Of a stretch of DNA of 64,000 nt, positions 31,060 through 60,785 are shown piece after piece (position 1 is the first letter of the stretch; each line of letters starts with the position of its first letter). The stretch spans positions 3,381 through 67,380 of the forward strand of contig NZ_JBAZTL010000009.1 of NCBI RefSeq assembly GCF_041661885.1. Reading direction: 5' to 3'. This DNA comes from Sphingomonas sp. (GTDB lineage: Bacteria > Pseudomonadota > Alphaproteobacteria > Sphingomonadales > Sphingomonadaceae). Both the position numbers and the translations under genes were made by a program. The notes under the pieces were generated by a model that was given only the letters and a program-made list of their open reading frames with translations, was not told the origin of the DNA and made no database searches.

Positions 31060-32190
31060 ATGACCTCTCCGCGCATCCTCGTTATCTTCGGCACCCGGCC
31101 CGAAGCGATCAAACTCTTTCCCGTGGTTGCGGCGCTCAAGGCGCAGGGTGGCCTTGATGTGCGCACCTGCGTGACCGCGCAGCATCGCGGGCTGCTCGAC
31201 CAAGTGCTCAGCATCGCCAATCTGCGCCCCGATATCGATCTCGACCTGATGGAGCCGGGCCAGACGCTCGACCGCCTGACCGCGCGGCTGCTGATCGGGC
31301 TTGGCGATGTGATGGATGCCGAAAAGCCCGACCGGGTGATGGTGCAGGGCGACACCGCCACTGCGATGGTCGGTGCGCTGGCGGCATATTATCGCAAGGT
31401 GCCGGTCAGCCATGTCGAGGCGGGCTTGCGCTCGGGCGACATTTACCAGCCCTGGCCCGAGGAAGTGAACCGCCGGATCGTCGCGCCGATCGCAGACCAG
31501 CATTTCGCGCCGACCGAGACCGCCGCCGACGCACTGCGCCGCGAAAATATCGCCCCCGCGACGATCCACGTCACCGGCAACACCGTGATCGATGCGCTCT
31601 ACGCAACACGCGCCAAGCTCGCCGCCGACCCCACGCTCGCCAGCGGGCTCGACGGTATTGCGCAGCGTTTCGCGGGCAAGCGCATCATCCTGGTCACCAC
31701 CCACCGGCGCGAGAATTTCGGTGGCGGCATGGACAATATCGCGCACGCGCTCGCCCGCATCGCCGCGCGCGATGACGTGGCGATCCTGTTCCCGATGCAC
31801 CCCAACCCCAATGTGGTGGAGGCGATGAACCGCGTGCTGGGCGACCGGTCCAACATCGCGCGGATCGATCCGCTCGATTACCCCCACTTTATCCGCGCGC
31901 TGGAGCTGTGCGACATCGCGCTGACCGATTCGGGCGGCGTGCAGGAGGAAGCGCCCGCGCTTGCCAAGCCCGTGCTTGTGATGCGCGAGACGACCGAACG
32001 CCCCGAAGGCGTAGCGGCAGGCACCGCCAAGCTGATTGGCACCGATCCCGAGCGGATCGTTTCCGAAATATCAACCCTCCTCGACGACAAGGGCGCGTAC
32101 CAGGACATGGCACGCGCCCACAATCCGTTCGGCGACGGCCATGCGTCCGGCAGGATCGCAAAGGTAATCGCCGATGGTTTCGGATGCTGA
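31060..32190 (+). CDS. wecB: UDP-N-acetylglucosamine 2-epimerase (non-hydrolysing)
   Basis: FGTRPEAIK, HVEAGLRS, PEEVNR, TDSGGVQEEAP. Confidence 0.96.
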   Translation: MTSPRILVIFGTRPEAIKLFPVVAALKAQGGLDVRTCVTAQHRGLLDQVLSIANLRPDIDLDLMEPGQTLDRLTARLLIGLGDVMDAEKPDRVMVQGDTATAMVGALAAYYRKVPVSHVEAGLRSGDIYQPWPEEVNRRIVAPIADQHFAPTETAADALRRENIAPATIHVTGNTVIDALYATRAKLAADPTLASGLDGIAQRFAGKRIILVTTHRRENFGGGMDNIAHALARIAARDDVAILFPMHPNPNVVEAMNRVLGDRSNIARIDPLDYPHFIRALELCDIALTDSGGVQEEAPALAKPVLVMRETTERPEGVAAGTAKLIGTDPERIVSEISTLLDDKGAYQDMARAHNPFGDGHASGRIAKVIADGFGC

Positions 32191-33472
32191 ACTGAAGGTT
32201 GTCGTGGTCGGGCTGGGCTATATCGGCCTGCCGACCGCCGCCGTGATCGCGCGCACGGGTGCCAAGGTGCTCGGCATCGACGTGTCGGAACATGTCGTCG
32301 AAACGGTCAATTCGGGCAAAATCCATATCGAGGAAGTCGATCTCGACGGCCTCGTCTCGGGCGTGGTCGCGCGTGGCACCTTGCGTGCGGCGACACAGAT
32401 CGAACCCGCCGATGTGTTCGTCATCGCAGTGCCGACGCCCTTTGCCGACGATCATGCGCCCAATATCGGCTATGTCCTGCGCGCCGCGACCACCATTGCC
32501 GCCGTGCTGAAGGCAGGCGATGTCATCATCCTCGAATCGACCTCCCCCGTCGGCACGACCGAGAAGGTGCGCGACTTGCTCGCGCAATTGCGGCCCGATC
32601 TGAAGGTGCCCGGCAAGACCGGCGAGAGCGCCGACATTGCCATCGCCTATTGCCCCGAGCGCGTTTTGCCGGGGCGCATTCTGGTCGAGCTGATCGACAA
32701 TGACCGTGTGATCGGCGGCATCACCCCGCGTTGTGCGCGGAAAGCGCTGCAATTCTACCGCCGCTTCGTGCGCGGCGCGTGCGTCACCACCACCGCGCGC
32801 GCGGCGGAGATGACCAAGCTGACCGAAAACGCGTTTCGCGACGTCAACATCGCCTTCGCCAATGAACTGAGCCGCGTCGCCGACACGATGGAGGTCGATG
32901 TGTGGGAGGTGATCCGCCTCGCCAACCGCCACCCGCGCGTCAACATCCTCTCGCCCGGCCCCGGCGTCGGCGGGCATTGCATCGCGGTCGATCCGTGGTT
33001 CCTGGTTCATGCCGATCGCGACAACACCCCGCTGATCCGCACCGCGCGCGAAGTGAATGACGCCAAGATCGACTATGTCGTCGAGCGCGCCGAGGCGATG
33101 GTCGCGGCGCATCCGGGCGCGCGCGTCGCCTGTCTGGGCCTCGCCTTCAAGGCCAATATCGACGATTTCCGCGAGAGCCCCGCACTCAAGGTGGCGACCG
33201 CACTCGCGCAGCGCTTCGGCGATCGGCTCGACGTGGTCGAGCCTTATACCCGCGCCCTGCCCGCTGCGTTTGACGGCACTGGTGCGACGCTGACCGACAT
33301 CGATACCGCGATCGAGACATGCGGTATCATGATCGTGCTGGTCGACCATGATGTGTTCAAATCGGTGCCGGTCGATGAGCGCGCCGACAAGATCGTCTAT
33401 GACACGCGCGGCATCTGGCCCGATCAGCCGCGCGCGCCTGCTCGCACGGAAGCGTTGCGCCTCGCCAGCTAA
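32174..33472 (+). CDS. wecC: UDP-N-acetyl-D-mannosamine dehydrogenase
   Basis: GLGYIGLP, ESTSPVGT, CPERVLPG, GPGVGGHCI, FRESP. Confidence 0.95.
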   Translation: MVSDAELKVVVVGLGYIGLPTAAVIARTGAKVLGIDVSEHVVETVNSGKIHIEEVDLDGLVSGVVARGTLRAATQIEPADVFVIAVPTPFADDHAPNIGYVLRAATTIAAVLKAGDVIILESTSPVGTTEKVRDLLAQLRPDLKVPGKTGESADIAIAYCPERVLPGRILVELIDNDRVIGGITPRCARKALQFYRRFVRGACVTTTARAAEMTKLTENAFRDVNIAFANELSRVADTMEVDVWEVIRLANRHPRVNILSPGPGVGGHCIAVDPWFLVHADRDNTPLIRTAREVNDAKIDYVVERAEAMVAAHPGARVACLGLAFKANIDDFRESPALKVATALAQRFGDRLDVVEPYTRALPAAFDGTGATLTDIDTAIETCGIMIVLVDHDVFKSVPVDERADKIVYDTRGIWPDQPRAPARTEALRLAS

Positions 33473-33490
33473 GGCCTGATAGGGAACGCC

Positions 33491-34528
33491 ATGTCGACCG
33501 ATCCCATCCTCGTCACCGGTGTCGCCGGGTTCATCGGTATGCACGTCGCGCGCGCGCTGCTGGCGCGGGGTGAGCACGTCATCGGCATCGATAATTTCAA
33601 CGATTATTATCCCGTCAGCCTGAAGGAAGCGCGCGTCGCGGCGATTGCGGCAGAGGCAGACGGCCGCTTCACGCTGCACCGCGTCGATTTCGCCGATCAT
33701 GCCGTGCTCGATGCCGCGCTCGGGTCGGCGCACTTTTCCCGCATCGTCCATCTCGGGGCCCAAGCCGGGGTGCGCTATTCGATCGACAATCCGCGGGCCT
33801 ATATCCATTCGAACATCGCAGGGCACCTCAACCTGCTCGAACTCGGGCGGCAGCGCGGCGTCGCGCATCTCGTTTATGCGTCGTCCTCCTCCATCTATGG
33901 CGGCGATGCGAACGTCCCGTTCAAGGTCGATGACCGCGCCGACCGACCCTTGTCGCTCTATGCAGCAACCAAGCGCGCCGACGAGTTGATGAGCGAAACC
34001 TACGCGCATCTCTATCGCCTGCCGCAAACGGGGTTGCGCTTCTTCACGGTCTACGGGCCGTGGGGGCGGCCCGACATGGCAATGTGGCTGTTCACCAGCG
34101 CGATCCTCGAAGGTCGCCCGATTCAGGTGTTCAACAACGGCGATATGCGGCGCGATTTTACCTATATCGACGATATCGTCGCCGGGATCATCGCCTGCCT
34201 CGACCATCCGCCTGCGGACGACGGCAGCATCAAGGCCGGCGGCAGCCCGGCCCCGCACCGGCTCTACAATATCGGCAACCACCGCTCGGAGCGGCTCGAC
34301 CGGCTGATCGACCTGATCGAGGCGGCGTGCGGCAAGCCCGCGATCCGCATCAACGCGCCGATGCAGCCGGGCGACATGCAGGATACCTTCGCCGACATCA
34401 GCGCGATCCAGCACGACCTTGGCTTCGCGCCGACCACGCCGATCGATGTCGGCGTACCGCGCTTTGTGGAATGGTATCGCGGTTACAAAGAGCACGGATC
34501 TTCGCAAACGCAGCACTGGACTGGCTAG
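33491..34528 (+). CDS. UDP-glucuronate 4-epimerase-like SDR
   Basis: TGVAGFIG, AQAGVRYS, YAATKRADE, FFTVYGPWGRPDMA, RDFTYIDD. Confidence 0.88.
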   Translation: MSTDPILVTGVAGFIGMHVARALLARGEHVIGIDNFNDYYPVSLKEARVAAIAAEADGRFTLHRVDFADHAVLDAALGSAHFSRIVHLGAQAGVRYSIDNPRAYIHSNIAGHLNLLELGRQRGVAHLVYASSSSIYGGDANVPFKVDDRADRPLSLYAATKRADELMSETYAHLYRLPQTGLRFFTVYGPWGRPDMAMWLFTSAILEGRPIQVFNNGDMRRDFTYIDDIVAGIIACLDHPPADDGSIKAGGSPAPHRLYNIGNHRSERLDRLIDLIEAACGKPAIRINAPMQPGDMQDTFADISAIQHDLGFAPTTPIDVGVPRFVEWYRGYKEHGSSQTQHWTG

Positions 34529-34572
34529 GACAGGCTGCTATGGCTCGGGCTTCATATGCCGGGGACATGTAG

Positions 34573-35673
34573 ATGACGAAGACCGCGCTGATCACCGGGA
34601 TCACCGGGCAGGACGGGGCCTATCTTGCCGAACTGCTGCTCGCCAAGGGCTATGAAGTCCACGGCATCAAGCGACGTTCGTCCTCGTTCAATACCGGCCG
34701 GATCGACCATCTCTATCAGGACCCGCACGAACTCGGCGCGCGGTTGCACCTGCATTATGGCGACATGACCGATTCGATGAATTTGACGCGGATCGTCCAG
34801 GAAACCCGGCCCGACGAAATCTACAATCTGGCGGCGATGAGCCATGTTCAAGTCAGTTTCGAAACCCCCGAATATACCGCCAATGCCGACGGCATCGGTA
34901 CGCTGCGCCTGCTCGAGGCGATCCGGCTGCTGAAGATGACCGAGACCACGCGCATCTATCAGGCGTCGACGTCGGAGCTGTACGGGCTGGTGCAGGAAGT
35001 GCCGCAGTCGGAAACCACGCCCTTCTACCCGCGCTCACCTTATGCCGCCGCCAAGATGTACGCCTATTGGATCACGGTGAATTACCGTGAGGCCTATGGA
35101 ATGCACGCCTCCAACGGCATCCTGTTCAACCATGAAAGCCCGCTGCGCGGCGAGACCTTCGTCACCCGCAAGATCACCCGCGCCGTCGCGGCGATCCACC
35201 TTGGCCATCAGGATATGCTGTGGCTCGGCAATCTTGACGCCAAGCGCGACTGGGGCCATGCGCGCGATTATGTCGAGGGCATGTGGCGGATCGTGCAACA
35301 GCCTAAGGGCGACGATTTCGTGCTGGCGACGGGCGTTACGCAAACCGTGCGCTCGTTCGTCGAACTCGCCTTTGCCGAGGTCGACACGCAGATTTCGTGG
35401 AGCGGCGAAGGCGTCGATGAGGTCGGCGTCTGCGCCAAGACCGGCAAGACGCTGGTCAAGGTTGATCCGCGCTATTTCCGCCCGACCGAAGTCGATTTGC
35501 TGATCGGCAATCCCGCCAAGGCCAAGCGCGTGCTCGGCTGGGAAGCGACCACCACGCTCGGCGAATTGTGCGCGGAAATGGTGCGCGAGGATTTGAAGGT
35601 CATCGCGCGCGAGGCCGCGCAGCGCCGCCCCGACGAAGAGCGCCCCGCCTCGCTTTATGCGATCAAGGGCTGA
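34573..35673 (+). CDS. gmd: GDP-mannose 4,6-dehydratase
   Basis: [36 protein letters not shown]. Confidence 0.97.
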
Positions 35674-35678
35674 ACCGC

Positions 35679-36623
35679 ATGACCGTCCCCTTCTCCCTTG
35701 AGAACAAGCGCGTCTGGGTTGCGGGCGAGCGCGGCATGGTCGGGCGCGCGATCGTGCGGCGGCTGGCCGGGGAAGGCTGCACGATCGTCTCGCCCGAGCG
35801 CCGGATCGATTTGCGCGACCAGGCAGCGACCTTCGCCTGGCTGGACGAAGCGAAAATCGACCTGATCTTCCTCGCCGCCGCCAAGGTCGGCGGGATTGCC
35901 GCGAACAACGCGTTTCCGGGTGAGTTCCTCTACGACAATCTGATGATCGAGGCCAACGTGATCGAAGGCGCGCGCCGCGCCAGGGTCGCCAAGCTGGTGT
36001 TCCTCGGCTCGTCGTGCATCTTCCCCAAGATGGCGCCGCAACCGATCCCCGAAAGCGCGCTGCTGACCGGGCCGCTCGAGCCGACCAACGAATGGTATGC
36101 CATCGCCAAGATCGCCGGGTTGAAGCTGTGCGCCGCCTATCGCCGCCAATATGGCTGTGACTTCATTTCCGCGCAGCCGACCAACCTGTACGGCCCATTC
36201 GACAATTTCGATCTCGAATCGAGCCATGTCCTGCCCGCGCTGCTGCGCAAGGCGCATGAAGCGAAGCTGGCGGGCGCCGCCGAGATGACGGTATGGGGCA
36301 GCGGCACGCCACTGCGCGAATTCCTGCATGTCGACGATCTCGCCGACGCGCTGGTGTTCCTGGCGCAGACCTATTCGGCCGAAGATTTCGTCAATATCGG
36401 CACGGGCGAGGAATTCAGCATCGCCGAGCTTGCGCATATGGTGAGCGCGGCGGTCGGCTTTCCGGGCACGCTGGTGTTCGACGCGACGCGCCCCGACGGC
36501 ACGCCGCGCAAGCTGATCGACACCACGCGGCTGCAGGGCCTGGGCTGGAAACCGTCAATCCCGATGCAGCGCGGGCTGGCGGAGGTGTATGACTGGTTCC
36601 TGGAGCACCGCGCATCCGCCTGA
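35679..36623 (+). CDS. fcl: GDP-L-fucose synthase
   Basis: AAKVGGI, GSSCIFPK, YAIAKIAG, PTNLYGP, REFLHVDD. Confidence 0.95.
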   Translation: MTVPFSLENKRVWVAGERGMVGRAIVRRLAGEGCTIVSPERRIDLRDQAATFAWLDEAKIDLIFLAAAKVGGIAANNAFPGEFLYDNLMIEANVIEGARRARVAKLVFLGSSCIFPKMAPQPIPESALLTGPLEPTNEWYAIAKIAGLKLCAAYRRQYGCDFISAQPTNLYGPFDNFDLESSHVLPALLRKAHEAKLAGAAEMTVWGSGTPLREFLHVDDLADALVFLAQTYSAEDFVNIGTGEEFSIAELAHMVSAAVGFPGTLVFDATRPDGTPRKLIDTTRLQGLGWKPSIPMQRGLAEVYDWFLEHRASA

Positions 36624-36665
36624 AATACTGACGTTGCCTAAGGTCATGCCCTCATTTTTCTACGG

Positions 36666-37442
36666 ATGCCCTTCATGAAAAAAGCCCTAAAACGCAGTGC
36701 CCGTTTCCTGCAGCGTGTCACCGGCCTTGACCCGAAGGCCTTGGCCAATGCCCGCTATTTCCCGCGTTATTGGCGCGAATTGCAGGCGTTTCGGGCGCAA
36801 GGCGGCACGGTCGAGCGACTATGGCCGATTCTGGGGGATTATCACGACAGTTCGGGCTCGGCCTCGGGCCATTATTTCCATCAGGATTTGCTGGTGGCGC
36901 AATTCATCTATACCGCCAATCCCGACGCGCATCTGGACGTAGCCTCGCGCATCGACGGGTTCGTTGCACATGTCGCCACGTTCCGGGCGATCGACGTGCT
37001 CGACATCCGCCCGCTGCCACCGACCGCGCACGCCAATATCCGCTTCGTCCAGGCCGATCTCATGCAGCCGCAACCCGAATTGCAGGCGCGCTATCCCTCG
37101 GTCAGTTGCCTGCACGCGCTCGAACATTTCGGGCTGGGCCGCTATACCGACAGCATCGACGTCAACGGTCACCGCAAGGGCTTCGACGCGATCGCCGCCT
37201 TGGTTGCGCCGGGCGGCGTATTCTATCTAAGCTTCCCGGTCGGGCGATCCCGCGTCGAATTCAACGCGCACCGCGTCTTCGCGCCGGGCGAACCGCTGGA
37301 ATGGGCGGACGGTCGCTTTACACTCGAGCGCTTCGACTATGTCGATGACGCTGGCGCGTTGCACGTCTCCGCCAAGGTCGAGGATGCCGCCGCGCTCGAT
37401 TATGGTTGCGGCATTTATACGCTGCGCAAGGCTGACCAATAG
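36666..37442 (+). CDS. DUF268 domain protein (methyltransferase-like)
   Basis: YFHQDLLVA, SRIDGFVAHVA, SCLHALEHFGLGRY, FNAHRVF recognised as the DUF268 pattern. Confidence 0.75.
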   Translation: MPFMKKALKRSARFLQRVTGLDPKALANARYFPRYWRELQAFRAQGGTVERLWPILGDYHDSSGSASGHYFHQDLLVAQFIYTANPDAHLDVASRIDGFVAHVATFRAIDVLDIRPLPPTAHANIRFVQADLMQPQPELQARYPSVSCLHALEHFGLGRYTDSIDVNGHRKGFDAIAALVAPGGVFYLSFPVGRSRVEFNAHRVFAPGEPLEWADGRFTLERFDYVDDAGALHVSAKVEDAAALDYGCGIYTLRKADQ

Positions 37443-37460
37443 TCAGCCTTGCGCGAAGCC

Positions 37461-38213
37461 TCAGGCTTCCAGAGTGAAGATCGTATTGATCGAATCGGCG
37501 TAAAACTCGCGATAGCCGTTCGCCAGCAGGCTGGCGCGCACTTCACGATGCGATGTCTGCAACGACGCGTCGCCTTCAAAATCGCTGTGCCGATCGATCA
37601 GCTCGACGATCATCACGCGTGGACGCCACGCGCTTTGCAGCAACGTCGCGACAATCGCTTGCTCGCCCCCCTCGACATCGATCACCATCAAATCGAAACG
37701 GTGCGGGATCGCATTGCGTTGAAAAACCGTCTCCAGTCGGTCGGTACGGATTGACTGCGACGTTGCGGCCCGAGACGCGTCCTGCGCCCAACTGATGGTG
37801 TTATAGAGTTCCGCAGTCGGCGCGTTCATGGTCGAAAGCGGGCCCATCACGCTGATCTCTGCGGTGCCAGCGGTGTCGGCAATACCGACATTCTCGGCAA
37901 CCACGCGATTGAACAGGTGGCGCGCCCGCGCGCGCGCGTGATAAGCGGGGATCGGTTCAACATAGACGCCGCGCCACCCCTGATCCGCAAGAAACGACGT
38001 GTTCGACCAGGTTTCCCCGTCAAATGCGCCGACTTCCACGAAAACACCCGTATCGGGTGCCAGGCCCAGCGCGCTGTATTTCTCCCGAAGCTGCGGGATT
38101 TGGCACGTCGCCGAAATCGTTGCTTGCCCCGACAATTTCGCCTGAAGGCCGCGCGAAACGGCGAAGCCCAAGGAGCGGCCAAGCTCCAAAACACTTTTGG
38201 CCTGCTTACGCAT
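37461..38213 (-). CDS. FkbM-family methyltransferase
   Basis: FVEVGAFDG..SNT, VEP, IDVEGGE motifs. Confidence 0.88.
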   Translation of the reverse strand: MRKQAKSVLELGRSLGFAVSRGLQAKLSGQATISATCQIPQLREKYSALGLAPDTGVFVEVGAFDGETWSNTSFLADQGWRGVYVEPIPAYHARARARHLFNRVVAENVGIADTAGTAEISVMGPLSTMNAPTAELYNTISWAQDASRAATSQSIRTDRLETVFQRNAIPHRFDLMVIDVEGGEQAIVATLLQSAWRPRVMIVELIDRHSDFEGDASLQTSHREVRASLLANGYREFYADSINTIFTLEA

Positions 38214-38243
38214 CACGTGTCTCCAAGATGATAGCGCGCCGGC

Positions 38244-39476
38244 TCACGCCGTTGCGCCGCGCTGTAGCGCCGAGAAAAAGGTTTCTTCGGCCGCGCGGGG
38301 ATGGAAAAGTTGGTCGCCGACCGCTTTTGCTCGTTCCGCCAGCGCGAGCGTCCGTGGGCGATCCTCGAACAGGCGCGTGACTGCCGTCCTCAGCGCTTCC
38401 GGCGTTTCGTCGGTGATGACCGCCGCGACGCCGGGGTAGCTCCGTTCCCACTGCACTGCCGAGCAATAATCGGGGCCAGTGGCGAGGATCGGCAAGCCGA
38501 CATTGCAATAATCGGTCAACTTGCTGGGAAAGGAGAGGCGCATATTGTCGTGATATTTCGGTTCCGACCACATCGGCAGGAACAGATAATCAATCTCCGT
38601 GCGCAAGGCATCGCTTAGCGCATTGGGTGTCAGCAAACCGCGAAATTCGATATTGGGCAAGTCGAGTTCGGGCTGCGTCTCGCGCGTTGCCGGGCCATAG
38701 ATCACCAACTTGCCCCCCAACGGGGCGAGCACGGCAGCGAGCCGGGCGTTGGCCGCGACCATGCCGATGGTGTTCATCGACCCTGCAAAGGCGAAAGTGC
38801 GCCCACCCGCCCCCGACATCAGCCGGGGCGAAACCCCGCGATAGACCGGAGCCTGATAAGATCGAGCGGGATACAGAATCGTTCCAGGCGCACCGTAAAG
38901 AGCGCTATAATCATCGGCCATCGCCGGGGAAACGCACAGGCGGGTGCTGGCCTGGCGATAAAGGCGCGCGAACACCTTTTGCTTCCAGGGCTCCAATTGC
39001 GGCAGCGTCAGTTGCGTTCGCGCCCATTCGTCATGGCAGATGAGGTGCAGCGGAAGCCCCCGCTCCCGCGCAATCGTCGCGGCGTTAATCCACGCATTGC
39101 CGTGCGTCACGGTCAACACCGCATCCGCTTCGAACGGGCCGATCGCCTTGCGTACCGCGCCAACGCGCCAGGTCTCCGTCAACAACGCCACGCTGCCCGC
39201 AATTTGCGCCCAGCGTGTACGCTTGATCCGCGACAGCGTTTCCGGCGCGTACCGATAATCAACCCCTGCAAGCCTGCGTTCGGGAAGCGAAGCGTGCGCC
39301 ACCTCGACAATCCGTAGCCGTTCGACGGGATAGTTCAACAGCAGGCGATATAGCAGACTGGAACCGTGATAGCTGTTCTCGATCGGCACCTCGCCAACAT
39401 AGAGCAGGCGCGGCAGACGCGCGGGATCGACGTGCTTCCCGTCGACCATATCCTGAACTGTTTCGCTCGATAGCAT
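38244..39476 (-). CDS. Glycosyltransferase (GT-B, family 4-like)
   Basis: SFPSKLTDYCNVGLPIL C-terminal GT-B motif; start uncertain (39476 or 39449). Confidence 0.8.
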   Translation of the reverse strand: MLSSETVQDMVDGKHVDPARLPRLLYVGEVPIENSYHGSSLLYRLLLNYPVERLRIVEVAHASLPERRLAGVDYRYAPETLSRIKRTRWAQIAGSVALLTETWRVGAVRKAIGPFEADAVLTVTHGNAWINAATIARERGLPLHLICHDEWARTQLTLPQLEPWKQKVFARLYRQASTRLCVSPAMADDYSALYGAPGTILYPARSYQAPVYRGVSPRLMSGAGGRTFAFAGSMNTIGMVAANARLAAVLAPLGGKLVIYGPATRETQPELDLPNIEFRGLLTPNALSDALRTEIDYLFLPMWSEPKYHDNMRLSFPSKLTDYCNVGLPILATGPDYCSAVQWERSYPGVAAVITDETPEALRTAVTRLFEDRPRTLALAERAKAVGDQLFHPRAAEETFFSALQRGATA

Positions 39477-39493
39477 ATCGCCGACAGCCGCCG

Positions 39494-40543
39494 TCACCCG
39501 CGCCGCGCTTGCGCTTCGTGGATTTCCTGGATCGTCACGCCGACCGATTTGGTAATCTCCCACCCCGGATAATGCGCCTTGATCTTGGCGAGGTCGGAAT
39601 AATAGCAAATGTGGTCGCCCGCGCGGTTCTGGTCGACATATTCGGACACCATCGCCTTGCCGCTCACCGCCTCGGCGATCTTGAATGCCTCCAGGATCGA
39701 CACCGAATTGTCCTTGCCGCCGCCGAGATTGTACACCTCCCCGCTGCGCGGCTTGTCGATGAAGCGGACAATGAATTCGCCCACGTCAAAACTGTGGATG
39801 TTGTCGCGGACCTGTTTGCCCTTGTAGCCGAAGATCCGGTACAATTTGCCCTCAGCATTGGCGCGCACGAGATAGCTGAGAAAGCCGTGCAGCTCGACGC
39901 CGCTATGGCTCGGGCCGGTCAGACAGCCCCCACGCAGCGCGCAGGTCGGCATACCGAAATAGCGGCCATATTCCTGTACCATTACGTCGGCGGCGACCTT
40001 GGACGCGCCGAAGATCGAATGCTTGCTGCGATCGATGCGGAAATCCTCGGCAATACCCTCGGCATAGGCCGGGTCGGCATAGTCCCAGCGCGTTTCCAAT
40101 TCGGTCAGCGCGATCTCGTTGGGCGCATCACCATACACCTTGTTGGTGCTCATGTGGACGAACGGGCTTTCCGCGCAATGCTGGCGCGCGGCCTCCAGCA
40201 GGTTGAGCGTGCCGACCGCATTGGTATCAAAATCGTCAAACGGACGCGAGGCGGCGAGATCGTGGCTCGGCTGTGCCGCGCAATGTACGATCGCATCGGG
40301 CTTGAGCGCGGCGATCAACGTATCAACGCCCTTGCGATCCCGAATGTCGAGCTCGGCATGTTCGAATGAGGCATAAGTGTCGATCAGCCGCGCCTGGTTC
40401 CAGCGCGTGTCGCCACCGGGACCAAAGAAATCCGCCCGCATATTGTTGTCGACCCCGACAACGCGCCATCCATCGGCCGCGAGCCGCGAGACGACCTCCG
40501 AGCCGATGAGACCAGAAGAACCGGTGACGAGCGCTTTTTTCAT
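39494..40543 (-). CDS. NAD-dependent epimerase, CDP-paratose 2-epimerase (RfbE/Tyv)-like
   Basis: [40 protein letters not shown]. Confidence 0.8.
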
Positions 40544-40722
40544 GGGAACCTACGGTCTGGATGAAGCTGTCAAAGCTATTGCTGCTGCGCAACAACAACA
40601 CAAGGCGATTCGAGCACCGCAAATTGCTGCAACAGGACCGCGGGATTTGCCCGCGCGCCGGATGCGCGGTTGAATTGCCCCAAGCTGCCCCTAAAGCACG
40701 GAAGCTTGCATCCGGGGGGCCA

Positions 40723-42750
40723 ATGGATCACCGTTCCTATCGTCGCGATATCGATGGCCTGCGCGCGGTCGCTATCATCCCCGTCGTGCTGTTCCATGCA
40801 GGTGCCACGCTCTTCCTGGGCGGGTTCGCCGGGGTTGACGTATTTTTTGTCATCTCCGGTTTTCTCATTACCGGCACGTTATTTACCGAATTGGAAGCGA
40901 GTGGGCAGATCAGCATTCTGCGCTTTTATGGCCGCCGGATCGCGCGGATTTTCCCGGCATTGTTGCTGGTTGTGGCCATCACCTTGCTGGCTGGCCTGCT
41001 GCTGCTCTCGCCCGCCTTGTACGAGATTCACAGTCTTGCCAAATCGGTAATCGCGAGCGTCGGCTTTGTCGCCAACCTCTATTTCCTGTTCGTCACCGAC
41101 ACTTACTTCGCGCCCGATACCGCCACGCTGCCGTTGTTGCACATGTGGTCGCTCGCGGTGGAAGAGCAATATTATCTGGTGTGGCCCTTGCTGATGATCG
41201 CGGCGATGCGCTTGCCGGATCGCTTCGCCTCGCTGCGCAGTCGCTGCCTCGCGGCGGTGCTGGCGATTACGGTTGCGTCCTTGCTGAGCTGCATCGCGAT
41301 CAACGCCTCGCACCCCGCCGCGGCCTTTTATTTGCCCTTCACGCGCGCGTGGGAATTGGGCCTTGGGTCTGCGCTGGCCTTGCTGCGACCGCGCGATGTC
41401 GCACGCGTGTGGCTCGGGCTTGCCGGGTTCGTCGGGGTGGCATTGGTATTGGTTGGCTATGTCGTGATCCGCGAGAGCGGCAGCTTCCCCTTCCCCCTCG
41501 CCTTGCTGCCAACGATCGGTACGTGCCTGTTGATCTGGGGGGGGGGGGGAGATTCCCGCACGCCGGTGGCGCGCGTACTGGCGACGGCACCGCTCATATC
41601 GATCGGTCGTGTCTCCTATGCGTGGTATCTATGGCACTGGCCATTACTCGCCTTTGCCAATATCCTTTCCGTAGGCACACCCTCCCCGGAGTTGCGCGCG
41701 GCGTGTGTGCTGGGATCGCTCCTGCTGTCCTACCCCACCGTAGCATGGGTGGAAAAGCCGGTCCGATTCGGCTTCTCCCGCCGGGTGGGCCCGGCAAAAT
41801 CCGTTATCGCCGGGCTGGCCGCAGGGTTCGCGCTGATTCTTTTGTCGGGCGGCGTATATGGGGCCGCGCGTTTCGGGCTACTGAATAGCGATCCGATGAT
41901 TGCTGCCGCGCTGACCGATGTCCCGAAGCGCACGAGCACTTGCCTGCGCCTTGAAGGAAGCACCGAAAAGGTAGTGGTGCCCCCAAAATGCCTTGGCCAA
42001 GCCGGGCACCCGCGCATTGTCCTGTGGGGAGATTCCTTTGCCAATCAATGGCGCCCCGCCCTTGACCAGTGGCAAGATCGGCACCACGACTGGCGTATTG
42101 AACAGCTTACGGTCGCCAATTGTCCTCCGCTGCTGAGCGTGCGGCCAGGAGCAGTTAATGAACGAACCGCGCCCTATGCCGAATGCGTTGCGCTCAACGC
42201 CGCCGTCGCACAGCGACTTGCCCAGCAGGACAGCCCGTCAACCGTTGTCATCCTTGCCGCCAATTGGCTGGCACGCGAGGGGGGCGATACGCCGACAGGG
42301 TTGCCGCCAACGCCGCTGACTTTCGACGTTAGCGCAAAGGACATCCCCGCCTCGCTTGCGGCATTGGCGCGCGGCCTCGACAACAGTTTGACGATGCTCG
42401 ACCACTGGAAGCTACGCTCGATCGTGGTCCTGCAATCGCCGCGCTTCGTGCGCTCGCCCGCCGCGTGCGTGCAGCGGTTGGGTGCGACCGTCTGCGCCAT
42501 GCGCCGCGACGACTTCGACAGGATGGCAAGCCGAGTTAACGCCATCCTTCGCGACACGGTTGCGCGACATCCGACGGCGACTGTGCTCGACCCACGCGAT
42601 ATCTTGTGCTCCGCGACGATCTGCCCCGTTGTGAGCGATAGCCGGATCGCTTATTCCGATACCGTCCACGTTGCCGCATCGACCGCAGCCGCGCCGCGCT
42701 CCGTAAAGGTTTGGGGCAGCCTGCTGGATCGATCGGTTACCGAGCACTGA
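40723..42750 (+). CDS. O-acetyltransferase, Acyl_transf_3 + SGNH domains (OafA-like)
   Basis: YRRDIDGLRA, GVDVFFVISGF, HMWSLAVEEQYY, SYAWYLWHWP, then WGDSFA and SDTVHV (SGNH). Confidence 0.92.
   Translation: MDHRSYRRDIDGLRAVAIIPVVLFHAGATLFLGGFAGVDVFFVISGFLITGTLFTELEASGQISILRFYGRRIARIFPALLLVVAITLLAGLLLLSPALYEIHSLAKSVIASVGFVANLYFLFVTDTYFAPDTATLPLLHMWSLAVEEQYYLVWPLLMIAAMRLPDRFASLRSRCLAAVLAITVASLLSCIAINASHPAAAFYLPFTRAWELGLGSALALLRPRDVARVWLGLAGFVGVALVLVGYVVIRESGSFPFPLALLPTIGTCLLIWGGGGDSRTPVARVLATAPLISIGRVSYAWYLWHWPLLAFANILSVGTPSPELRAACVLGSLLLSYPTVAWVEKPVRFGFSRRVGPAKSVIAGLAAGFALILLSGGVYGAARFGLLNSDPMIAAALTDVPKRTSTCLRLEGSTEKVVVPPKCLGQAGHPRIVLWGDSFANQWRPALDQWQDRHHDWRIEQLTVANCPPLLSVRPGAVNERTAPYAECVALNAAVAQRLAQQDSPSTVVILAANWLAREGGDTPTGLPPTPLTFDVSAKDIPASLAALARGLDNSLTMLDHWKLRSIVVLQSPRFVRSPAACVQRLGATVCAMRRDDFDRMASRVNAILRDTVARHPTATVLDPRDILCSATICPVVSDSRIAYSDTVHVAASTAAAPRSVKVWGSLLDRSVTEH
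41537..41549 (+). repeat. G13 homopolymer inside the O-acetyltransferase CDS
   Basis: TGG GGG GGG GGG GGA (W-G-G-G-G), currently in frame. Confidence 0.9.
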
Positions 42751-42756
42751 GCACAC

Positions 42757-44004
42757 TCACTCCAACCCGCACGCCGCAAACAATTGCTGGAAGCGGTTTT
42801 CCCAGCGATGGTCGCGACGTGCACGCCGCCAGCCGGCCTCGCGCAAGGCCTCGGCGGCGTCGGGGTGGCTCAGGTAAAAGCGCGTCTTGTCGACCAGTTC
42901 CTCCGCCGAGCGATAGCAATCGATCTCGCGACCGACCTCGAAGAAATGCTCGATCTCGTCGGTATAGCCCGTCAGATAGCAGGCACGCGACATCGGCCCT
43001 TCGAAATCGCGCAAGCGTACATGCGGGATCAGCGTCGAGCCGGGCTTGCCGTCGCTCCACACATTGCTGAAATTGAGCACCACCGCGTGGCCTGCGAACG
43101 CCTGCGCGACATCGGCGGCATACCCGCCATAATGGGCCGATAACGCGGCGCGCATCGGCCCCGCCGTTCGCCGCTCACGCACGCGATCCACAATCCGTGC
43201 CGCGCCACCCACGATGCCCTGCTCCCGAAAAATCCGCCCGAATTCGGTGAGGTAGGCGGCCATGCTCCCCGGAGGCGCCACCGGTCGCCCAAGGCTTACA
43301 CTGCTGCCCTGATCGGTCCCGGACCGATGCGTCGCGAGCATATCCGACCAGCCGCGCCCGTGCAGCGTGAGCGGCACGCCGGCATGGTGCAGCGCATAGA
43401 GCAGCCGGTCGCGATCGGCATAGCGTTGCCCGACGAAACACGCGTCCGCAGCTTGGGTAATCTCGGGATAAGGGCGATAGACATCTGGGTCGGCGGCCAT
43501 CTGCACCCACACCGGATTGGCCCCGACCGCGCGATAGGCTGCCGCTGCGTGCATTTCGGCATGCCAGGCAAAATCGACCGCCGGGGCAATCGCCGCGACC
43601 AAATCGAACTGATACATGCTGTTACAGTAAAAATTGACGGTGGGGATGCCCAGCGCACGGATATCCGCAAAGCCCGCCGGATCGAAATGCGCATTGTAAA
43701 AATAGCTGAGAAACAGGTCGATCGGCTTTTCGCGATGCGCCGCGCGCACCTCATCGAGGATCGCTTGCGTGATCCCCGCGCGGGTTTCAGCTTCTTCCGC
43801 CGTGAAATTCCCTGCCACCTGCATGAAGTCGCTCGCAGGGAGCAGATCGACTTGCGATTCGACCAGATCGTGCCCCATGCGCCGCAGCGCCGGGTAGAAA
43901 TTGCTGGTCCATAAATCCGAAAAATACTGTTTCGGATCTTTGGCGTGACGGATGGCGACGAAGATCCGCAGCCTGCGCCCGCTCGACGGAACGGTGACCG
44001 ACAA
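42757..44004 (-). CDS. CgeB-family glycosyltransferase (Glyco_trans_1_2)
   Basis: FVGQRYADR, LRDFEGPMS, FFEVGREI, GWRRARRDHRWENR; TTG start tentative (44004 or 44025). Confidence 0.8.
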   Translation of the reverse strand: MSVTVPSSGRRLRIFVAIRHAKDPKQYFSDLWTSNFYPALRRMGHDLVESQVDLLPASDFMQVAGNFTAEEAETRAGITQAILDEVRAAHREKPIDLFLSYFYNAHFDPAGFADIRALGIPTVNFYCNSMYQFDLVAAIAPAVDFAWHAEMHAAAAYRAVGANPVWVQMAADPDVYRPYPEITQAADACFVGQRYADRDRLLYALHHAGVPLTLHGRGWSDMLATHRSGTDQGSSVSLGRPVAPPGSMAAYLTEFGRIFREQGIVGGAARIVDRVRERRTAGPMRAALSAHYGGYAADVAQAFAGHAVVLNFSNVWSDGKPGSTLIPHVRLRDFEGPMSRACYLTGYTDEIEHFFEVGREIDCYRSAEELVDKTRFYLSHPDAAEALREAGWRRARRDHRWENRFQQLFAACGLE

Positions 44005-44014
44005 ACCTGCGCCC

Positions 44015-45301
44015 TTACGCGGCAACGACGGGTTGCACGTCGTCGATTCGCTTGATCACAATCTCACCGACGGGAGGCAGCGCCAAACTGCCATAACCTG
44101 ACGATTGCTGGAAATTGTACGCGCCCCCTGCAGGGTTCGACCAGTTCACTTCGAACTCCAGCGCCTGCAAAATCTCGTGGTCCCAATTGTTATTGATGAC
44201 CGCAGTGTACAAATCGAGAAAATATCCACCTGCGGCGAGCTGGAGCTGCCCCAGCGACACGCGCATCGTGTAACGCCCGGCCTCGCGTGGCAGCGCCTGG
44301 TCGGCGAAATGGCTGAGCGAGAACATCCCGATCCGCAAACATTGCGCGTCGGTGAGCATTACCTCCAGCGACAAACGCGGCGACCCGTCGGTTTCGAACT
44401 CAACTTCGAGAACCAGCGGATCATTGGGGTCGTAAATCTTGATAGCCTGCCCCGCAGAGCCGACCAGCCGCGCCGAAACCAGCCGGGTATGCTGGCCACG
44501 CCCCTTGAACACCGCACCCGCCGGCGCGACACTACCCGCCGCCTGATACACCGCGATCGCCTCTTCGGTCGGGCCGCTGAACACCACACGCCCCGCGTCC
44601 AGCACCACGCATTTGGTGGTCAGGCTCTTCACCGCCGCCATATTGTGGCTCACGAACAACACGGTACGGCCCTCGCCAGCGATGTCGTGCATACGGCCAA
44701 GGCATTTGCGCTGGAACTCGGCATCGCCCACCGCCAGAACTTCATCGACGACCAGAATCTCCGAATCGAGATGCGCGGCCACCGCAAAGGCAAGCCGCGT
44801 GTACATGCCACTCGAATAGCGTTTCACCGGCGTATCGAGAAAACGCTCCACACCGGCGAAGGTGACGATTTCGTCGAAGCGCTGCTTGATCTCGGCCCGC
44901 TTCATGCCAAGGATCGTGCCGTTGAGGAAGATATTCTCGCGGCCGGTCAGCTCGGGATGGAAGCCGGTGCCGACTTCCAGCAAGCTCGACACACGCCCGG
45001 CGACGCGGATTTCACCGGCACTTGGCTCGGTGATCCGCGACAGGACCTTCAGGAAGGTGCTCTTGCCCGCCCCGTTGCGACCGATGACGCCAATCGCATC
45101 GCCGCGCGCGACGTCGAACGTCAGGTCGCGCAGCGCCCAAAATTCCTCGTGCGTCGGTCGCCCGGAGCGATTGAACAGCCCCATCGGGCCGCGCATGATC
45201 GCATCGCGCAGCGAGGTGTAGCTCTCACGCTGGCCGTTATGGTTGATATTGTACTTCTTGCCCAAGCCCTGGACGCGGATCGCGTAATCGGTCGCGCTCA
45301 T
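44015..45301 (-). CDS. wzt: Polysaccharide ABC transporter ATPase with C-terminal Wzt_C-like domain
   Basis: GRNGAGKST, GFHPELTGREN, YSSGMYTRLAF, DEVLAVGDAEFQ, plus ~170-aa beta-rich C-terminal extension. Confidence 0.93.
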   Translation of the reverse strand: MSATDYAIRVQGLGKKYNINHNGQRESYTSLRDAIMRGPMGLFNRSGRPTHEEFWALRDLTFDVARGDAIGVIGRNGAGKSTFLKVLSRITEPSAGEIRVAGRVSSLLEVGTGFHPELTGRENIFLNGTILGMKRAEIKQRFDEIVTFAGVERFLDTPVKRYSSGMYTRLAFAVAAHLDSEILVVDEVLAVGDAEFQRKCLGRMHDIAGEGRTVLFVSHNMAAVKSLTTKCVVLDAGRVVFSGPTEEAIAVYQAAGSVAPAGAVFKGRGQHTRLVSARLVGSAGQAIKIYDPNDPLVLEVEFETDGSPRLSLEVMLTDAQCLRIGMFSLSHFADQALPREAGRYTMRVSLGQLQLAAGGYFLDLYTAVINNNWDHEILQALEFEVNWSNPAGGAYNFQQSSGYGSLALPPVGEIVIKRIDDVQPVVAA

Positions 45302-46152
45302 ATGATGTCCGCAAAGCTGCGCTCGGTCTTGCGGAAATATCCGACGCCGATGACGAGGAAAATAACGACCACGACGAGATTGATCGCCAAGCCCAACGGA
45401 TTGAGGGGGTTGGCCCCGCGCAACAGGCACCAGCGGAACCCCTCAATCGCGCCGACGGCGGGGTTGAGGTACATCAGCAACTGCCACTTCGCCGGAAGCA
45501 CGCTCAGCGAAAAACCGACCGGCGAAACATAAACGCCAAATTGGATGACGAACGGGATGATGTAGCGGAAATCGCGATATTTCACGTTCATCGCCGTCAC
45601 CAACAAGGCTGGCCCAAGGCTCGCCAGCAACCCCAGCAGCGTGAAAATCGGCAACGCCAAAATCTGCGGCCCCGGCACGAAGCCGTACCAGACGAACAAA
45701 ACCGCCAACAGCAGCAGGTTGATGCCGAGATCGACCATTGCCACCATCGCCGCAGCCACCGGCACGATCAGGCGCGGGAAATACACCTTGCTGATAAGGT
45801 TTGCGTTGCCGATCAAGCTCGCCGAAGCTTCGCCCAGAATGGTGGTGAACAAGAACCACGGAAGCAACGCCGAAAACACCATCAGCGAATAGGGCACGCC
45901 GACCATCGTCGGCAGTTTCGCAACACGACCGAACACGAAGGCAAGCACCACCATCGTCAGCAGCGGGCGGATAATCGCCCAGGCAACGCCGATCGCGGTC
46001 TGTTTGTACCGCACCGCAATATCGCGCCATGCCAGCACCGCGAACAATTCGCGATACCGCCACAGATCGCGCCAATATTGCCCGCCCGAACGCCCGGGGG
46101 CCAATATCAATATGTCGGACGTTCGGTGGTGATCGATCGTATGGTCACTCAT
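45298..46152 (-). CDS. wzm: Polysaccharide ABC transporter permease
   Basis: RDIAVRYKQT, LISKVYFPR, KYRDFRY, YLNP motifs; ATGA overlap with wzt. Confidence 0.93.
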   Translation of the reverse strand: MSDHTIDHHRTSDILILAPGRSGGQYWRDLWRYRELFAVLAWRDIAVRYKQTAIGVAWAIIRPLLTMVVLAFVFGRVAKLPTMVGVPYSLMVFSALLPWFLFTTILGEASASLIGNANLISKVYFPRLIVPVAAAMVAMVDLGINLLLLAVLFVWYGFVPGPQILALPIFTLLGLLASLGPALLVTAMNVKYRDFRYIIPFVIQFGVYVSPVGFSLSVLPAKWQLLMYLNPAVGAIEGFRWCLLRGANPLNPLGLAINLVVVVIFLVIGVGYFRKTERSFADII

Positions 46153-46248
46153 GTGATGTCATCGCGATATGCGCCCCCAGGCAAATCCCGCCTTGGGCCA
46201 GCGGATAGCCGATCCCCAAGGGGGGGACAAGGCAACGCCCGTAATGCC

Positions 46249-52648: not shown

Positions 52649-52906
52649 TTTGCCGCAGGGTGATAAGCAGCGAGCGAGTTCACGCACGGTTCCAAGCTTG
52701 AAGTGGCGGCACCGACATTCCGGACATCGTACGCTCCTGACGCGCCGGGCTGTGACACATCGCCTTGGTCGCTGGCAAATCCAAAAAAAGCTCTCCGATC
52801 GCGGGCGTTCTCCTTTTTGAGGCGGGCAAAATAAAGTGTTCGGTTGACCGTTTGTGGACTATGCGCAACGGCCAGCCTGTTACCGTCGACCATATAAGGG
52901 GGAAAA

Positions 52907-60747: not shown

Positions 60748-60785
60748 CGCGGGCTACAAGCGTTACAAAGCTTCTCAGTCTGCGG

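What the first reader, a model, noticed from the sequence alone, without database searches (positions are those of the whole stretch)
41537..41549. In-frame G13 tract in the O-acetyltransferase: candidate phase-variation switch
Seen: TGG GGG GGG GGG GGA, 13 consecutive G, by far the longest homopolymer noticed in the window. It lies about 270 codons in, within the membrane domain and upstream of the SGNH domain. Gly elsewhere in these genes is mostly GGC, so three consecutive GGG codons are unexpected. Established: poly-G/C tracts in glycan O-acetyltransferase and GT genes drive slipped-strand ON/OFF switching in Neisseria, Haemophilus and Campylobacter. Inference: stochastic switching of surface O-acetylation, for example for phage evasion, in an environmental alphaproteobacterium.
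Basis: partly seen in the sequence, partly recalled or inferred. Interest (0 to 1): 0.75.

Follow-up and report, generated by a model that had tools for sequence, protein, structure and literature searches.

The report
Poly-G switch in Sphingomonas sugar O-acetyltransferase
A run of 13 G's inside a surface-sugar acetylating enzyme gene of a groundwater Sphingomonas differs in length between wild relatives, sometimes breaking the gene, so it looks like the mutational on/off switch known from pathogens, here in a free-living bacterium.

Summary
Window 41537-41549 is an uninterrupted G13, and the next longest homopolymer in 64 kb is C8. About 0.0005-0.007 such runs are expected by chance.

The tract lies in frame (I-W-G-G-G-G-D, residues 273-276) in an intact OafA/OafB-type AT3-SGNH O-acyltransferase (40723-42750, +). 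The gene sits in an ABC-transporter (Wzm/Wzt) polysaccharide island of a Sphingomonas. The glycines form the end of TMH8 and the loop before TMH9.

Near-identical copies occur in about 20 public runs, in at least five haplotype groups, and the tract length differs:
- G13 in three runs.
- G10, in frame.
- G3TG6, interrupted.
- G12, frame -1, in two runs.
- G13 plus an extra A, frame +1.

No other indel appears in the flanking roughly 1.1 kb. The +1 allele is otherwise an intact ORF under purifying selection (dN/dS 0.10 and 0.28). Orthologs at about 50% identity have WGGD/WGGT and no tract.

Best reading: a slipped-strand ON/OFF contingency switch, most like Neisseria pglI (G9-15) and Haemophilus oafA. 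It is a new member of a known kind in an unusual ecological setting.

Not shown: switching within a clone (only assembled contigs were available), the acetylated glycan, and any phage link.

The parts
41537..41549 (+). G13 homopolymer (TGG GGG GGG GGG GGA), the proposed slipped-strand switch. It encodes G273-G276.
   Evidence: Searches give sequence and rarity. Length differs between related runs: -3 nt (X9, X10), -1 nt (X16, X28), +A (X13 = L001), and unchanged in X1, X3, X4.
40723..42750 (+). AT3-SGNH O-acyltransferase gene (675 aa). The start at 40723 (MDHRSYRRDIDGLR...) matches the starts of homologs and the gene call on record.
   Evidence: Pfam PF01757 (3.7e-23) and PF19040 (2.9e-36). 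The exact 675-aa product is on record in NCBI, JGI, Logan and UniRef. AlphaFold2 model pLDDT 92.4, pTM 0.89.
40723..41871 (+). Membrane AT3 domain (residues 1-383, TM helices 1-11), with R14-X10-H25, FFVISG (41-46) and S298-X3-Y302 motifs.
   Evidence: Motif scan. Invariant columns R14, H25, S45, G46, S298, Y302 in 35 homologs. Helix map from the model: TMH8 is 261-274, loop 275-280, TMH9 is 298-315. Motif roles from PMC9833829.
41995..42747 (+). Periplasmic SGNH domain, with GDS at 436-438 and D646-x-x-H649.
   Evidence: The best PDB fold match is 6SE1, the Salmonella Paratyphi A OafB periplasmic domain (E 7e-6, TM 0.69 normalised to target).
41672..41674 (+). TAG stop reached in the -1 frame (G12 or G15 alleles). 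The product is 316-317 aa and lacks TMH9-11 and SGNH.
   Evidence: In-silico tract edits. Sequence.
41886..41888 (+). Stop reached in the +1 frame (G14 or G11 alleles). The product is 387-388 aa and lacks functional TMH9-11 and SGNH.
   Evidence: ORF 41145..41888. A real example is P0017 (388 aa...LLIWGGGGRFPHAGG...) from L001.
42757..46152 (-). Downstream neighbours on the opposite strand: a GT1-like glycosyltransferase (42757-44025), a Wzt ABC ATPase with Wzt_C domain (44015-45301) and a Wzm ABC-2 permease (45298-46152). This is the export pathway of the glycan that is presumably acetylated.
   Evidence: Pfam. The same neighbours occur in L001, L002 and L083.
31060..40543 (.). Upstream part of the polysaccharide island: wecB-like 2-epimerase, UDP-sugar dehydrogenase, three NAD epimerases/dehydratases, DUF268 and FkbM methyltransferases, and a GT4.
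   Evidence: Pfam.

Best explanation
The G13 tract is a hypermutable simple-sequence repeat inside the coding region of an OafA/OafB-type AT3-SGNH polysaccharide O-acyltransferase of a Sphingomonas. Gain or loss of one G by slipped-strand mispairing during replication moves the ribosome into a frame that stops at codon 316-317 (-1) or 387-388 (+1). That deletes TMH9, which carries the SXXXY motif lining the acyl-CoA cavity, along with TMH10-11 and the whole periplasmic SGNH transferase domain, so O-acylation of the Wzm/Wzt-exported surface polysaccharide is lost (OFF). A further +/-1 change restores the frame (ON). Changes of +/-3 nt (G10 versus G13) only shorten a poorly conserved flexible loop and keep the gene ON. 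Natural populations therefore hold a mixture of ON and OFF alleles, giving heritable but reversible heterogeneity in a surface glycan decoration. The most plausible selective agents are glycan-recognising phages or grazers. Shown: the tract, the intact enzyme, the frame consequences, length polymorphism between closely related populations, and the integrity of an OFF allele. Inferred: slippage as the mechanism, reversibility within a lineage, the rate, the acetylated substrate and the selective agent.
For: (1) The tract is extreme for this DNA: G13 against a next-longest run of 8, with 0.0005-0.007 expected. No G/C run of 9 or more lies in any other AT3-SGNH gene across 80 other AT3-SGNH loci (1.23 Mb); the only other long run is a G11 at the very end of locus L036, outside the gene. 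(2) The enzyme is intact: both Pfam domains, R14-X10-H25, FFVISG, SXXXY, GDS and DxxH, a confident model and an SGNH fold closest to OafB 6SE1. (3) Length alleles in contigs of independent runs are G13 (X1, X3, X4), G10 (X9), G3TG6 (X10), G12 (X16 and X28, same organism label, two runs) and G13+A (X13 = L001). No other indel was reported anywhere in the 600-1,100 bp laid, despite up to 26 substitutions. Within one haplotype group (X11, X13, X16, X17, X28) both a -1 and a +1 allele occur. (4) With the extra A removed, the L001 allele is a full-length ORF with no stops at 10% nucleotide divergence. Its dN/dS is 0.10 upstream and 0.28 downstream of the tract, so it is not a decaying pseudogene. 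(5) The glycines sit where length change is tolerable. G273 and G274 are moderately conserved (75 and 54 of 119), positions 275 and 276 are variable small residues, and local pLDDT dips to 81 at the TMH8-9 loop. (6) Precedent: Neisseria pglI has a genic G(9-15) tract with known phase variation (PMC5953494), and H. influenzae oafA, an AT3 enzyme, is phase variable (PMC9558356 and PMC11868660).
Against: No raw reads were available. Every run was Logan contigs, which drop minor variants, so within-population or within-clone heterogeneity was not measured. Several length calls come from contigs with only 7-15x word depth, where Illumina or PCR stutter at a G13 run could shift the consensus. The +1 allele is G13 followed by an extra A, which is not a textbook G-slippage product; it could be a G14 miscalled at the run's end or an independent insertion. 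At the observed divergence (dS 0.14-0.35), retention of the 3-4 synonymous G's is expected about 60% of the time, so conservation of the tract gives no proof of selection for mutability. No second long tract exists in the 64 kb. The gene is accessory, being absent from some related runs, so simple loss of function is also plausible.
Confidence: 0.62

Rival explanations
1. The homopolymer is incidental. It arose by chance synonymous drift in a Gly-rich loop and is a mutational hotspot, but it is not maintained for switching. The out-of-frame alleles are ordinary loss-of-function variants of a dispensable accessory gene on its way to being lost in some lineages.
For: The gene is absent from several related runs that share the flanks. 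The island has lower GC and a mosaic structure. Given the peptide WGGGG, codon usage alone yields a run of 13 or more about 1.3% of the time (0.234 cubed). Tract conservation has no statistical power at this divergence. There is only one long tract in 64 kb.
Against: The OFF allele in L001 shows no secondary damage and has dN/dS of 0.10-0.28. Two opposite frameshifts occur on one haplotype background. The tract stays at 10 G or more in all five haplotype groups, with only one interrupted copy. Mechanistically this rival still implies ON/OFF heterogeneity and differs only in whether that is selected.
Confidence: 0.27
2. The tract is really a stable G13 everywhere, and the apparent length differences and contig breaks are sequencing, PCR-stutter or de Bruijn assembly artefacts at a long homopolymer.
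For: Contigs break in or at the tract in X2, X5, X6, X7, X11, X14, X17, X18 and the JGI contig L002, whose first ~100 nt, up to the tract, are garbled. Variant lengths come from contigs at 7-15x depth. The 'extra A' looks like a phasing error.
Against: G12 is reproduced in two separate runs of organism E (X16 and X28). G13 is reproduced in X1, X3 and X4. The 3-nt-shorter form appears in two differently labelled organisms that share a haplotype. Random stutter would not give the same consensus twice, and it would rarely give a clean -3.
Confidence: 0.08
3. The tract's role is to vary the protein rather than switch it. In-frame changes (G10, G13, G16) alter the length of the TMH8-TMH9 loop and tune activity or specificity.
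For: Both G10 and G13 in-frame alleles exist. The loop is flexible and poorly conserved.
Against: Single-nucleotide slippage is far more frequent than 3-nt slippage in mononucleotide runs (general knowledge). Out-of-frame alleles are observed. Nothing suggests a one-glycine change in a cytoplasmic loop alters function.
Confidence: 0.03

Closest known systems
Neisseria pglI (NMB1836), the phase-variable pilin-glycan O-acetyltransferase
   Same: A poly-G tract inside the coding region (G9-15, 'genic', known phase variation; PMC5953494) of a membrane glycan O-acetyltransferase. A +/-1 change gives frameshift ON/OFF. The window's tract length of 13 falls within the pglI range.
   Different: pglI belongs to a host-restricted pathogen or commensal with dozens of SSR loci, and its substrate is a protein-linked glycan. 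Here the host is a free-living groundwater and drinking-water Sphingomonas, the gene lies in a Wzm/Wzt polysaccharide island, there is no evidence of other SSR loci, and switching has not been measured. Homology to PglI was not tested here.
Haemophilus influenzae oafA (AT3 LOS O-acetyltransferase)
   Same: An AT3-family enzyme whose expression is phase variable. It was frameshifted in the first sequenced strain and intact in others, and ON/OFF state changes surface antigenicity (PMC9558356 and PMC11868660).
   Different: The switch there is a tetranucleotide repeat (title of Fox et al. 2005, cited in PMC9558356), not a mononucleotide run. It acts on LOS heptose in a human pathogen.
Salmonella OafA/OafB (GtrC family II) AT3-SGNH O-antigen acetyltransferases
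   Same: The same two-domain architecture, the same R14/H25, FFXISG and SXXXY motifs, and an SGNH fold closest to OafB 6SE1. OafB expression is also phase variable and affects phage interaction (PMC9558356).
   Different: Salmonella uses epigenetic (Dam/OxyR-type) phase variation at the promoter, not an SSR in the ORF. Sequence identity is too low for a phmmer or profile hit to the PDB chain.
Campylobacter jejuni poly-G contingency genes for capsule/LOS modification
   Same: Homopolymeric G tracts in glycan-modifying genes create surface heterogeneity and phage-resistant subpopulations (PMC8437040 and PMC8224891, abstracts).
   Different: Campylobacter carries many such loci and, from my own knowledge, lacks MutS/MutL mismatch repair. 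Neither is known for this Sphingomonas.

Membership tests
AT3-SGNH carbohydrate O-acyltransferases (OafA/OafB type) | Acyl_transf_3 (PF01757) membrane domain above the gathering score | tested here: met
   82.5 bits against a cut-off of 31, residues 63-391 of the long ORF.
AT3-SGNH carbohydrate O-acyltransferases (OafA/OafB type) | C-terminally fused SGNH domain (PF19040) with a Ser-Asp-His triad | tested here: met
   125.9 bits against a cut-off of 27. G436-D437-S438 are invariant and D646/H649 are at least 90% conserved in 35 homologs. The best fold hit is 6SE1, the OafB periplasmic domain.
AT3-SGNH carbohydrate O-acyltransferases (OafA/OafB type) | Conserved AT3 motifs: R-X10-H in TMH1, FFXISG in TMH2, SXXXY in TMH9 | tested here: met
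   R14...H25, FFVISG 41-46 and S298...Y302, all invariant columns. Motif definitions from PMC9833829.
AT3-SGNH carbohydrate O-acyltransferases (OafA/OafB type) | [quoted passage not shown] | tested here: met
   The AlphaFold2 model (pLDDT 92.4) has long helices up to residue 383 followed by an alpha/beta domain. Orientation is inferred by analogy and was not computed.
AT3-SGNH carbohydrate O-acyltransferases (OafA/OafB type) | Demonstrated O-acylation of a defined glycan | not testable with these tools
   This needs NMR or MS of the polysaccharide from ON and OFF strains.
SSR-driven phase-variable (contingency) locus | A simple-sequence repeat in the ORF or promoter, long enough to be hypermutable (known genic poly-G phase-variable loci have 9 G or more) | tested here: met
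   G13 in the ORF. Neisseria ranges are G9-15 and G9-21.
SSR-driven phase-variable (contingency) locus | Repeat-number change toggles between a full-length and a truncated product | tested here: met
   G12 and G15 stop at 316-317 aa, G11 and G14 at 387-388 aa, and G10 stays full length. A natural truncated product is P0017.
SSR-driven phase-variable (contingency) locus | Tract-length polymorphism among closely related strains while the flanks stay collinear | tested here: met
   Five states across runs 96-100% identical, with no other indel in the flanks laid. Caveat: these are contig consensus sequences, some at low depth.
SSR-driven phase-variable (contingency) locus | OFF alleles are otherwise intact (reversible state, not a pseudogene) | tested here: met
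   The L001 allele has no stops after frame correction, with dN/dS of 0.10 and 0.28. Only one OFF allele could be read in full.
SSR-driven phase-variable (contingency) locus | High-frequency, reversible switching within a clonal lineage | not testable with these tools
   All 32 runs listed were available only as Logan contigs. Contig breaks at the tract are compatible with heterogeneity and equally with homopolymer sequencing error.
SSR-driven phase-variable (contingency) locus | Phenotypic ON/OFF difference with a selective consequence (phage, predator, immunity) | not testable with these tools
   No phenotype data exist.
SSR-driven phase-variable (contingency) locus | Genome carries several such loci (a 'phasome') | tested here: inconclusive
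   No other run longer than 8 nt in the 64-kb window. The rest of the genome was not available.

The most novel reading that the evidence does not exclude
This is a true evolved contingency locus in a free-living, oligotrophic-water Sphingomonas. Localized hypermutation is maintained by selection, most plausibly from glycan-binding phages, to keep ON and OFF O-acetylation states in every population. If so, SSR-based bet-hedging of surface glycans is not confined to host-adapted pathogens and also operates in groundwater and drinking-water alphaproteobacteria.
Probability: 0.4. Interest if true: 0.6.

Novelty: new member of a known kind. Interest (0 to 1): 0.5.

Why it matters
Phase variation through simple-sequence repeats has been studied almost only in host-adapted pathogens. 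A 2025 review explicitly names soil and ocean bacteria as a 'not looking' gap (PMC11868660). I found no paper on SSR phase variation in sphingomonads in the searchable library.

This locus gives a concrete, testable case. It is a single, very long tract in a well-understood enzyme class, in an organism that recurs in groundwater, freshwater, drinking-water and wood-decay data sets. Natural ON and OFF alleles are already visible in public assemblies.

If switching is confirmed, it would show that surface-glycan bet-hedging shapes phage-host dynamics in aquifers and water systems. It would also matter for MAG annotation, because such genes are easily miscalled as pseudogenes or split ORFs, as happened with P0001 and P0017. 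The mechanism itself would not be new.

Tried and rejected
- Raw-read tract-length distribution was not possible. Two run searches listed 32 runs, all kept as Logan contigs. A first try at the second search failed on a length limit.
- A metagenome-contig scan with both flanks and a variable gap found 0 hits.
- A second, looser scan found 69 hits. Only one, L122 (the same contig as L002), is homologous, and it is garbled upstream of the tract.
- The genome contigs protein scan found no close ortholog among GTDB species representatives. The best was 50% identity, in an uncultured Sphingomonas MAG, so the origin of the tract cannot be traced through intermediates. The protein database likewise jumps from 97-100% to 53% identity.
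- Contig breaks at the tract were considered as evidence of heterogeneity and then down-weighted. They occur mostly at 3-8x depth and are equally expected from homopolymer sequencing error.
- Conservation of the tract as evidence of selection was rejected for lack of power (dS 0.14-0.35, only 3-4 synonymous sites).
- A recombination breakpoint at the tract was rejected. The divergence jump between the window and L001 lies at 41923-42423, not at 41537.
- PDB sequence searches with the protein and with a 35-sequence profile gave no hit. Only the fold search found OafB.
- A promoter and terminator scan around the gene gave nothing above shuffles.
- Transcriptional slippage and ribosomal frameshifting were considered and not pursued. 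The reference allele is already in frame, and G runs are poor substrates for productive RNA polymerase slippage (my own knowledge).
Full report
**1. Observation**

Window 41537-41549 is an uninterrupted run of 13 G, flanked as ...CTGTTGATCT-G13-AGATTCCCGC....
- A census of all homopolymers in the 64 kb gives one G13. The next longest are a single C8 (17200-17207) and a handful of 7-mers.
- With the window's composition (62.9% GC), 0.007 (iid) or 0.0005 (first-order Markov) G runs of 13 or more are expected.
- The run lies in frame in ORF 40561..42750 (+). Homolog N-termini and the gene call on record place the start at 40723 (MDHRSYRRDIDGLR...), giving 675 aa.
- The tract reads TGG GGG GGG GGG GGA, which is W272 G273 G274 G275 G276.
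- Glycine codons in 40 window ORFs are 54% GGC, 23% GGG, 16% GGT and 7% GGA.

**2. What the gene is**

Domains, motifs and structure:
- Pfam finds Acyl_transf_3 (PF01757) and the AT3-fused SGNH domain (PF19040), both far above gathering scores.
- The motifs described for OafA/OafB are all present: R14-X10-H25, FFVISG (41-46), S298-X3-Y302, the GDS block (436-438) and D646-x-x-H649. All are invariant or nearly invariant in a 35-sequence alignment. Their roles are taken from PMC9833829.
- An AlphaFold2 model built on that alignment is confident (mean pLDDT 92.4, pTM 0.89).
- PDB sequence searches find nothing. A fold search puts the C-terminal domain closest to 6SE1, the periplasmic SGNH domain of Salmonella Paratyphi A OafB (E 7e-6, TM 0.69 on the target).

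Where the tract falls in the protein:
- In the model TMH8 is residues 261-274, a loop spans 275-280, and the SXXXY helix (TMH9) is 298-315. The four glycines cap TMH8 and open the TMH8-9 loop. Local pLDDT dips to 81 there.
- In 119 homologs position 273 is G in 75 (otherwise A or S) and position 274 is G in 54. Positions 275 and 276 are variable small residues.
- The closest full-length relatives (50-53% identity) read WGGD or WGGT at the same length. So W-G-G is ancestral, and two further codons became Gly, all as GGG/GGA, only in this lineage.

**3. Context**

- DnaA (21024-22436, -) is 93% identical to that of Sphingomonas sp. TF3 and 84-88% identical to other Sphingomonas. The organism is a Sphingomonas.
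- From about 31 kb to the window's end lies a polysaccharide island of lower GC, 0.59-0.64 against 0.65-0.68 in the housekeeping part.
- Its genes are a wecB-like epimerase, a UDP-sugar dehydrogenase, several NAD epimerases, DUF268 and FkbM methyltransferases, a GT4, the AT3-SGNH gene, a GT1-like gene, Wzt with a Wzt_C domain, Wzm, two GT2, a hexapeptide acetyltransferase, a Bac_transf initiating transferase, a GT1, a second AT3-only gene, a Wzy_C/ligase-like gene and a Wzc-like protein.
- The enzyme therefore most likely O-acylates an ABC-transporter-exported surface polysaccharide. Which polymer is unknown.

**4. Is the tract variable?**

All public runs that hold this DNA were available only as assembled Logan contigs, so per-read length distributions could not be made. 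The contigs give the following picture. I grouped runs by shared SNPs.

| Haplotype group | Runs | State of the tract |
|---|---|---|
| 1, identical to the window | X1 (SRR18595301, groundwater metagenome, depth ~440), X2 | X1 is G13 and identical to the window over 5,945 bp. X2 contigs break in the tract. |
| 2, 14 SNPs per 1.1 kb | X3, X4 (organism A, depth ~55) | G13 |
| 3 | X5, X6, X7, X14 (wood-decay and freshwater metagenomes, 4-9x) | Contigs start or stop at the tract. |
| 4 | X9, X10, X8, X18 | X9 (organism C, 14x) is 3 nt shorter, G10, in frame. X10 (organism D, 7x) is 3 nt shorter with a G>T, giving G3TG6. X8 and the aquifer metatranscriptome X18 break there. |
| 5, ~4% diverged | X16, X28, X13, X11, X17 | X16 and X28 (organism E, two runs, ~10x) are 1 nt shorter, G12, frame -1. 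X13 (SRR30809810, read as L001) is G13 followed by an extra A, frame +1. X11 and X17 break in the tract. |

- Across all these runs the only indels reported in the 300-1,100 bp laid are at 41537 and 41549, against up to 26 substitutions.
- The protein database independently contains the consequence. P0017 (388 aa...LLIWGGGGRFPHAGG...) is the frameshifted N-terminal product. P0001 and P0242 (394 aa) are a C-terminal fragment called from a JGI contig that is garbled over its first ~100 nt, up to the tract.

**5. Is the OFF allele a dead gene?**

- After removing the extra A, the L001 allele is collinear with the window gene over all 2,028 nt. It has no internal stop at 10.3% nucleotide divergence.
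- Its dN/dS is 0.10 upstream and 0.28 downstream of the tract. The downstream 400 codons are thus still under purifying selection, as expected for a recently or reversibly switched gene and not for a decaying pseudogene.
- In-silico edits show that G12 and G15 stop at 316-317 aa (TAG at 41672-41674), G11 and G14 stop at 387-388 aa (stop at 41886-41888), and G10 stays full length.
- Either frameshift removes TMH9-11 and the SGNH domain, which should be a null.

**6. How unusual is it?**

- In 80 loci (1.23 Mb) around AT3-SGNH homologs from diverse bacteria, the only other G/C run of 9 or more is a G11 at the very end of one contig, outside the gene.
- Within the window no other run exceeds 8 nt. 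The C8 lies in a Tim44-like housekeeping gene.

**7. Interpretation**

The anatomy matches SSR-driven phase variation: a very long mononucleotide run inside a surface-glycan modification gene, ON and OFF alleles in nature, and an intact OFF allele.
- The closest precedent is Neisseria pglI, with a genic G(9-15) tract and known phase variation (PMC5953494).
- H. influenzae oafA is an AT3 enzyme that is phase variable, through a tetranucleotide repeat according to the title of Fox et al. 2005 cited there (PMC9558356 and PMC11868660).
- Salmonella OafB shares the architecture but switches epigenetically.
- I put 0.62 on the slipped-strand ON/OFF switch.
- I put 0.27 on the same hotspot being incidental, with OFF alleles as plain loss of function in an accessory gene. 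The gene is absent from several related runs.
- I put 0.08 on the length differences being homopolymer artefacts. Against that, G12 is reproduced in two runs, G13 in three, and the -3 form appears in two.
- I put 0.03 on a loop-length tuning role.

What is missing is any measure of switching within a clone, the acetylated substrate, and any link to phage.

**8. Novelty**

- The mechanism is known. The setting, a free-living groundwater and drinking-water Sphingomonas, is not one where SSR phase variation has been described in the library I could search.
- A recent review names environmental bacteria as a gap.
- I rate it a new member of a known kind, with interest 0.5.

Noticed in passing
window 41923-42423; L001 7235-8155: Between the window and the related contig L001 the gene differs by 1-9 nt per 100 nt, except in 41923-42423 (linker and N-terminal SGNH), where it differs by 16-33 per 100 nt. 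L001 also carries about 0.9 kb extra between the AT3 gene and the glycosyltransferase, holding a 196-aa ORF and a Methyltransf_24 gene. The locus is a recombination mosaic.
   Followed up: partly
window 36001-46000 (runs X23, X25, X26, X27, X30, X31): Several runs (X25-X27, X30, X31) hold 0.21-0.35 of the sampled words of this 10-kb stretch but have no contig on the AT3-SGNH gene; X23 holds none of the words and was listed only by study. The gene, or this version of the island, is accessory within the clade.
   Followed up: partly
window 51452-52687 (-) and 47123-47752 (-): The same island holds a second acyltransferase-3 gene without an SGNH domain, and a hexapeptide-repeat acetyltransferase. 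Neither has a long homopolymer.
   Followed up: partly
window 60001-62000; ORF 60786-62132 (-): GC drops sharply to 0.507, against about 0.61-0.68 elsewhere, over a 448-aa ORF with no Pfam match. It is probably a horizontally acquired membrane protein (flippase or polymerase type) of the polysaccharide island.
   Followed up: no
window 44015-45301 (-), 36666-38216: The ABC ATPase carries a Wzt_C carbohydrate-binding domain (weak, 22.9 bits), and two methyltransferases (DUF268, FkbM) lie nearby. This is the arrangement of O-polysaccharide systems whose chain length is set by a terminal methyl cap. It is notable in a Sphingomonas, a genus that lacks classical LPS (my own knowledge).
   Followed up: no
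window 4824-8264 (+): A 1,146-aa autotransporter has a beta-domain (PF03797) and a faint trypsin-like match in the passenger domain.
   Followed up: no
window 21024-22436 (-): dnaA lies about 10 kb from the start of the polysaccharide island. The window may be close to the replication origin. Cumulative GC skew declines monotonically with no turning point inside the window.
   Followed up: no
window 46220-46226 and 17200-17207: A G7 run sits in the 96-bp gap between wzm and the GT2 gene, and a C8 run sits inside a Tim44-like housekeeping gene. These are the next longest G/C runs. No length variation was examined.
   Followed up: no
L002 / L122 1-110: The only JGI metagenome contig with this gene (Ga0172379_10042783) starts with about 100 nt of garbled sequence that ends in GGGGTGGGGGGGG. 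Gene callers therefore produced a 394-aa C-terminal 'protein' (P0001, P0242), now also in NCBI. This shows how such tracts corrupt assemblies and annotation.
   Followed up: yes
window 41322-41545 and 41700-41850 (run X18): An aquifer metatranscriptome holds low-depth contigs of this gene (haplotype group 4), one ending inside the tract. This suggests the gene is transcribed in situ, although DNA carry-over cannot be excluded.
   Followed up: no
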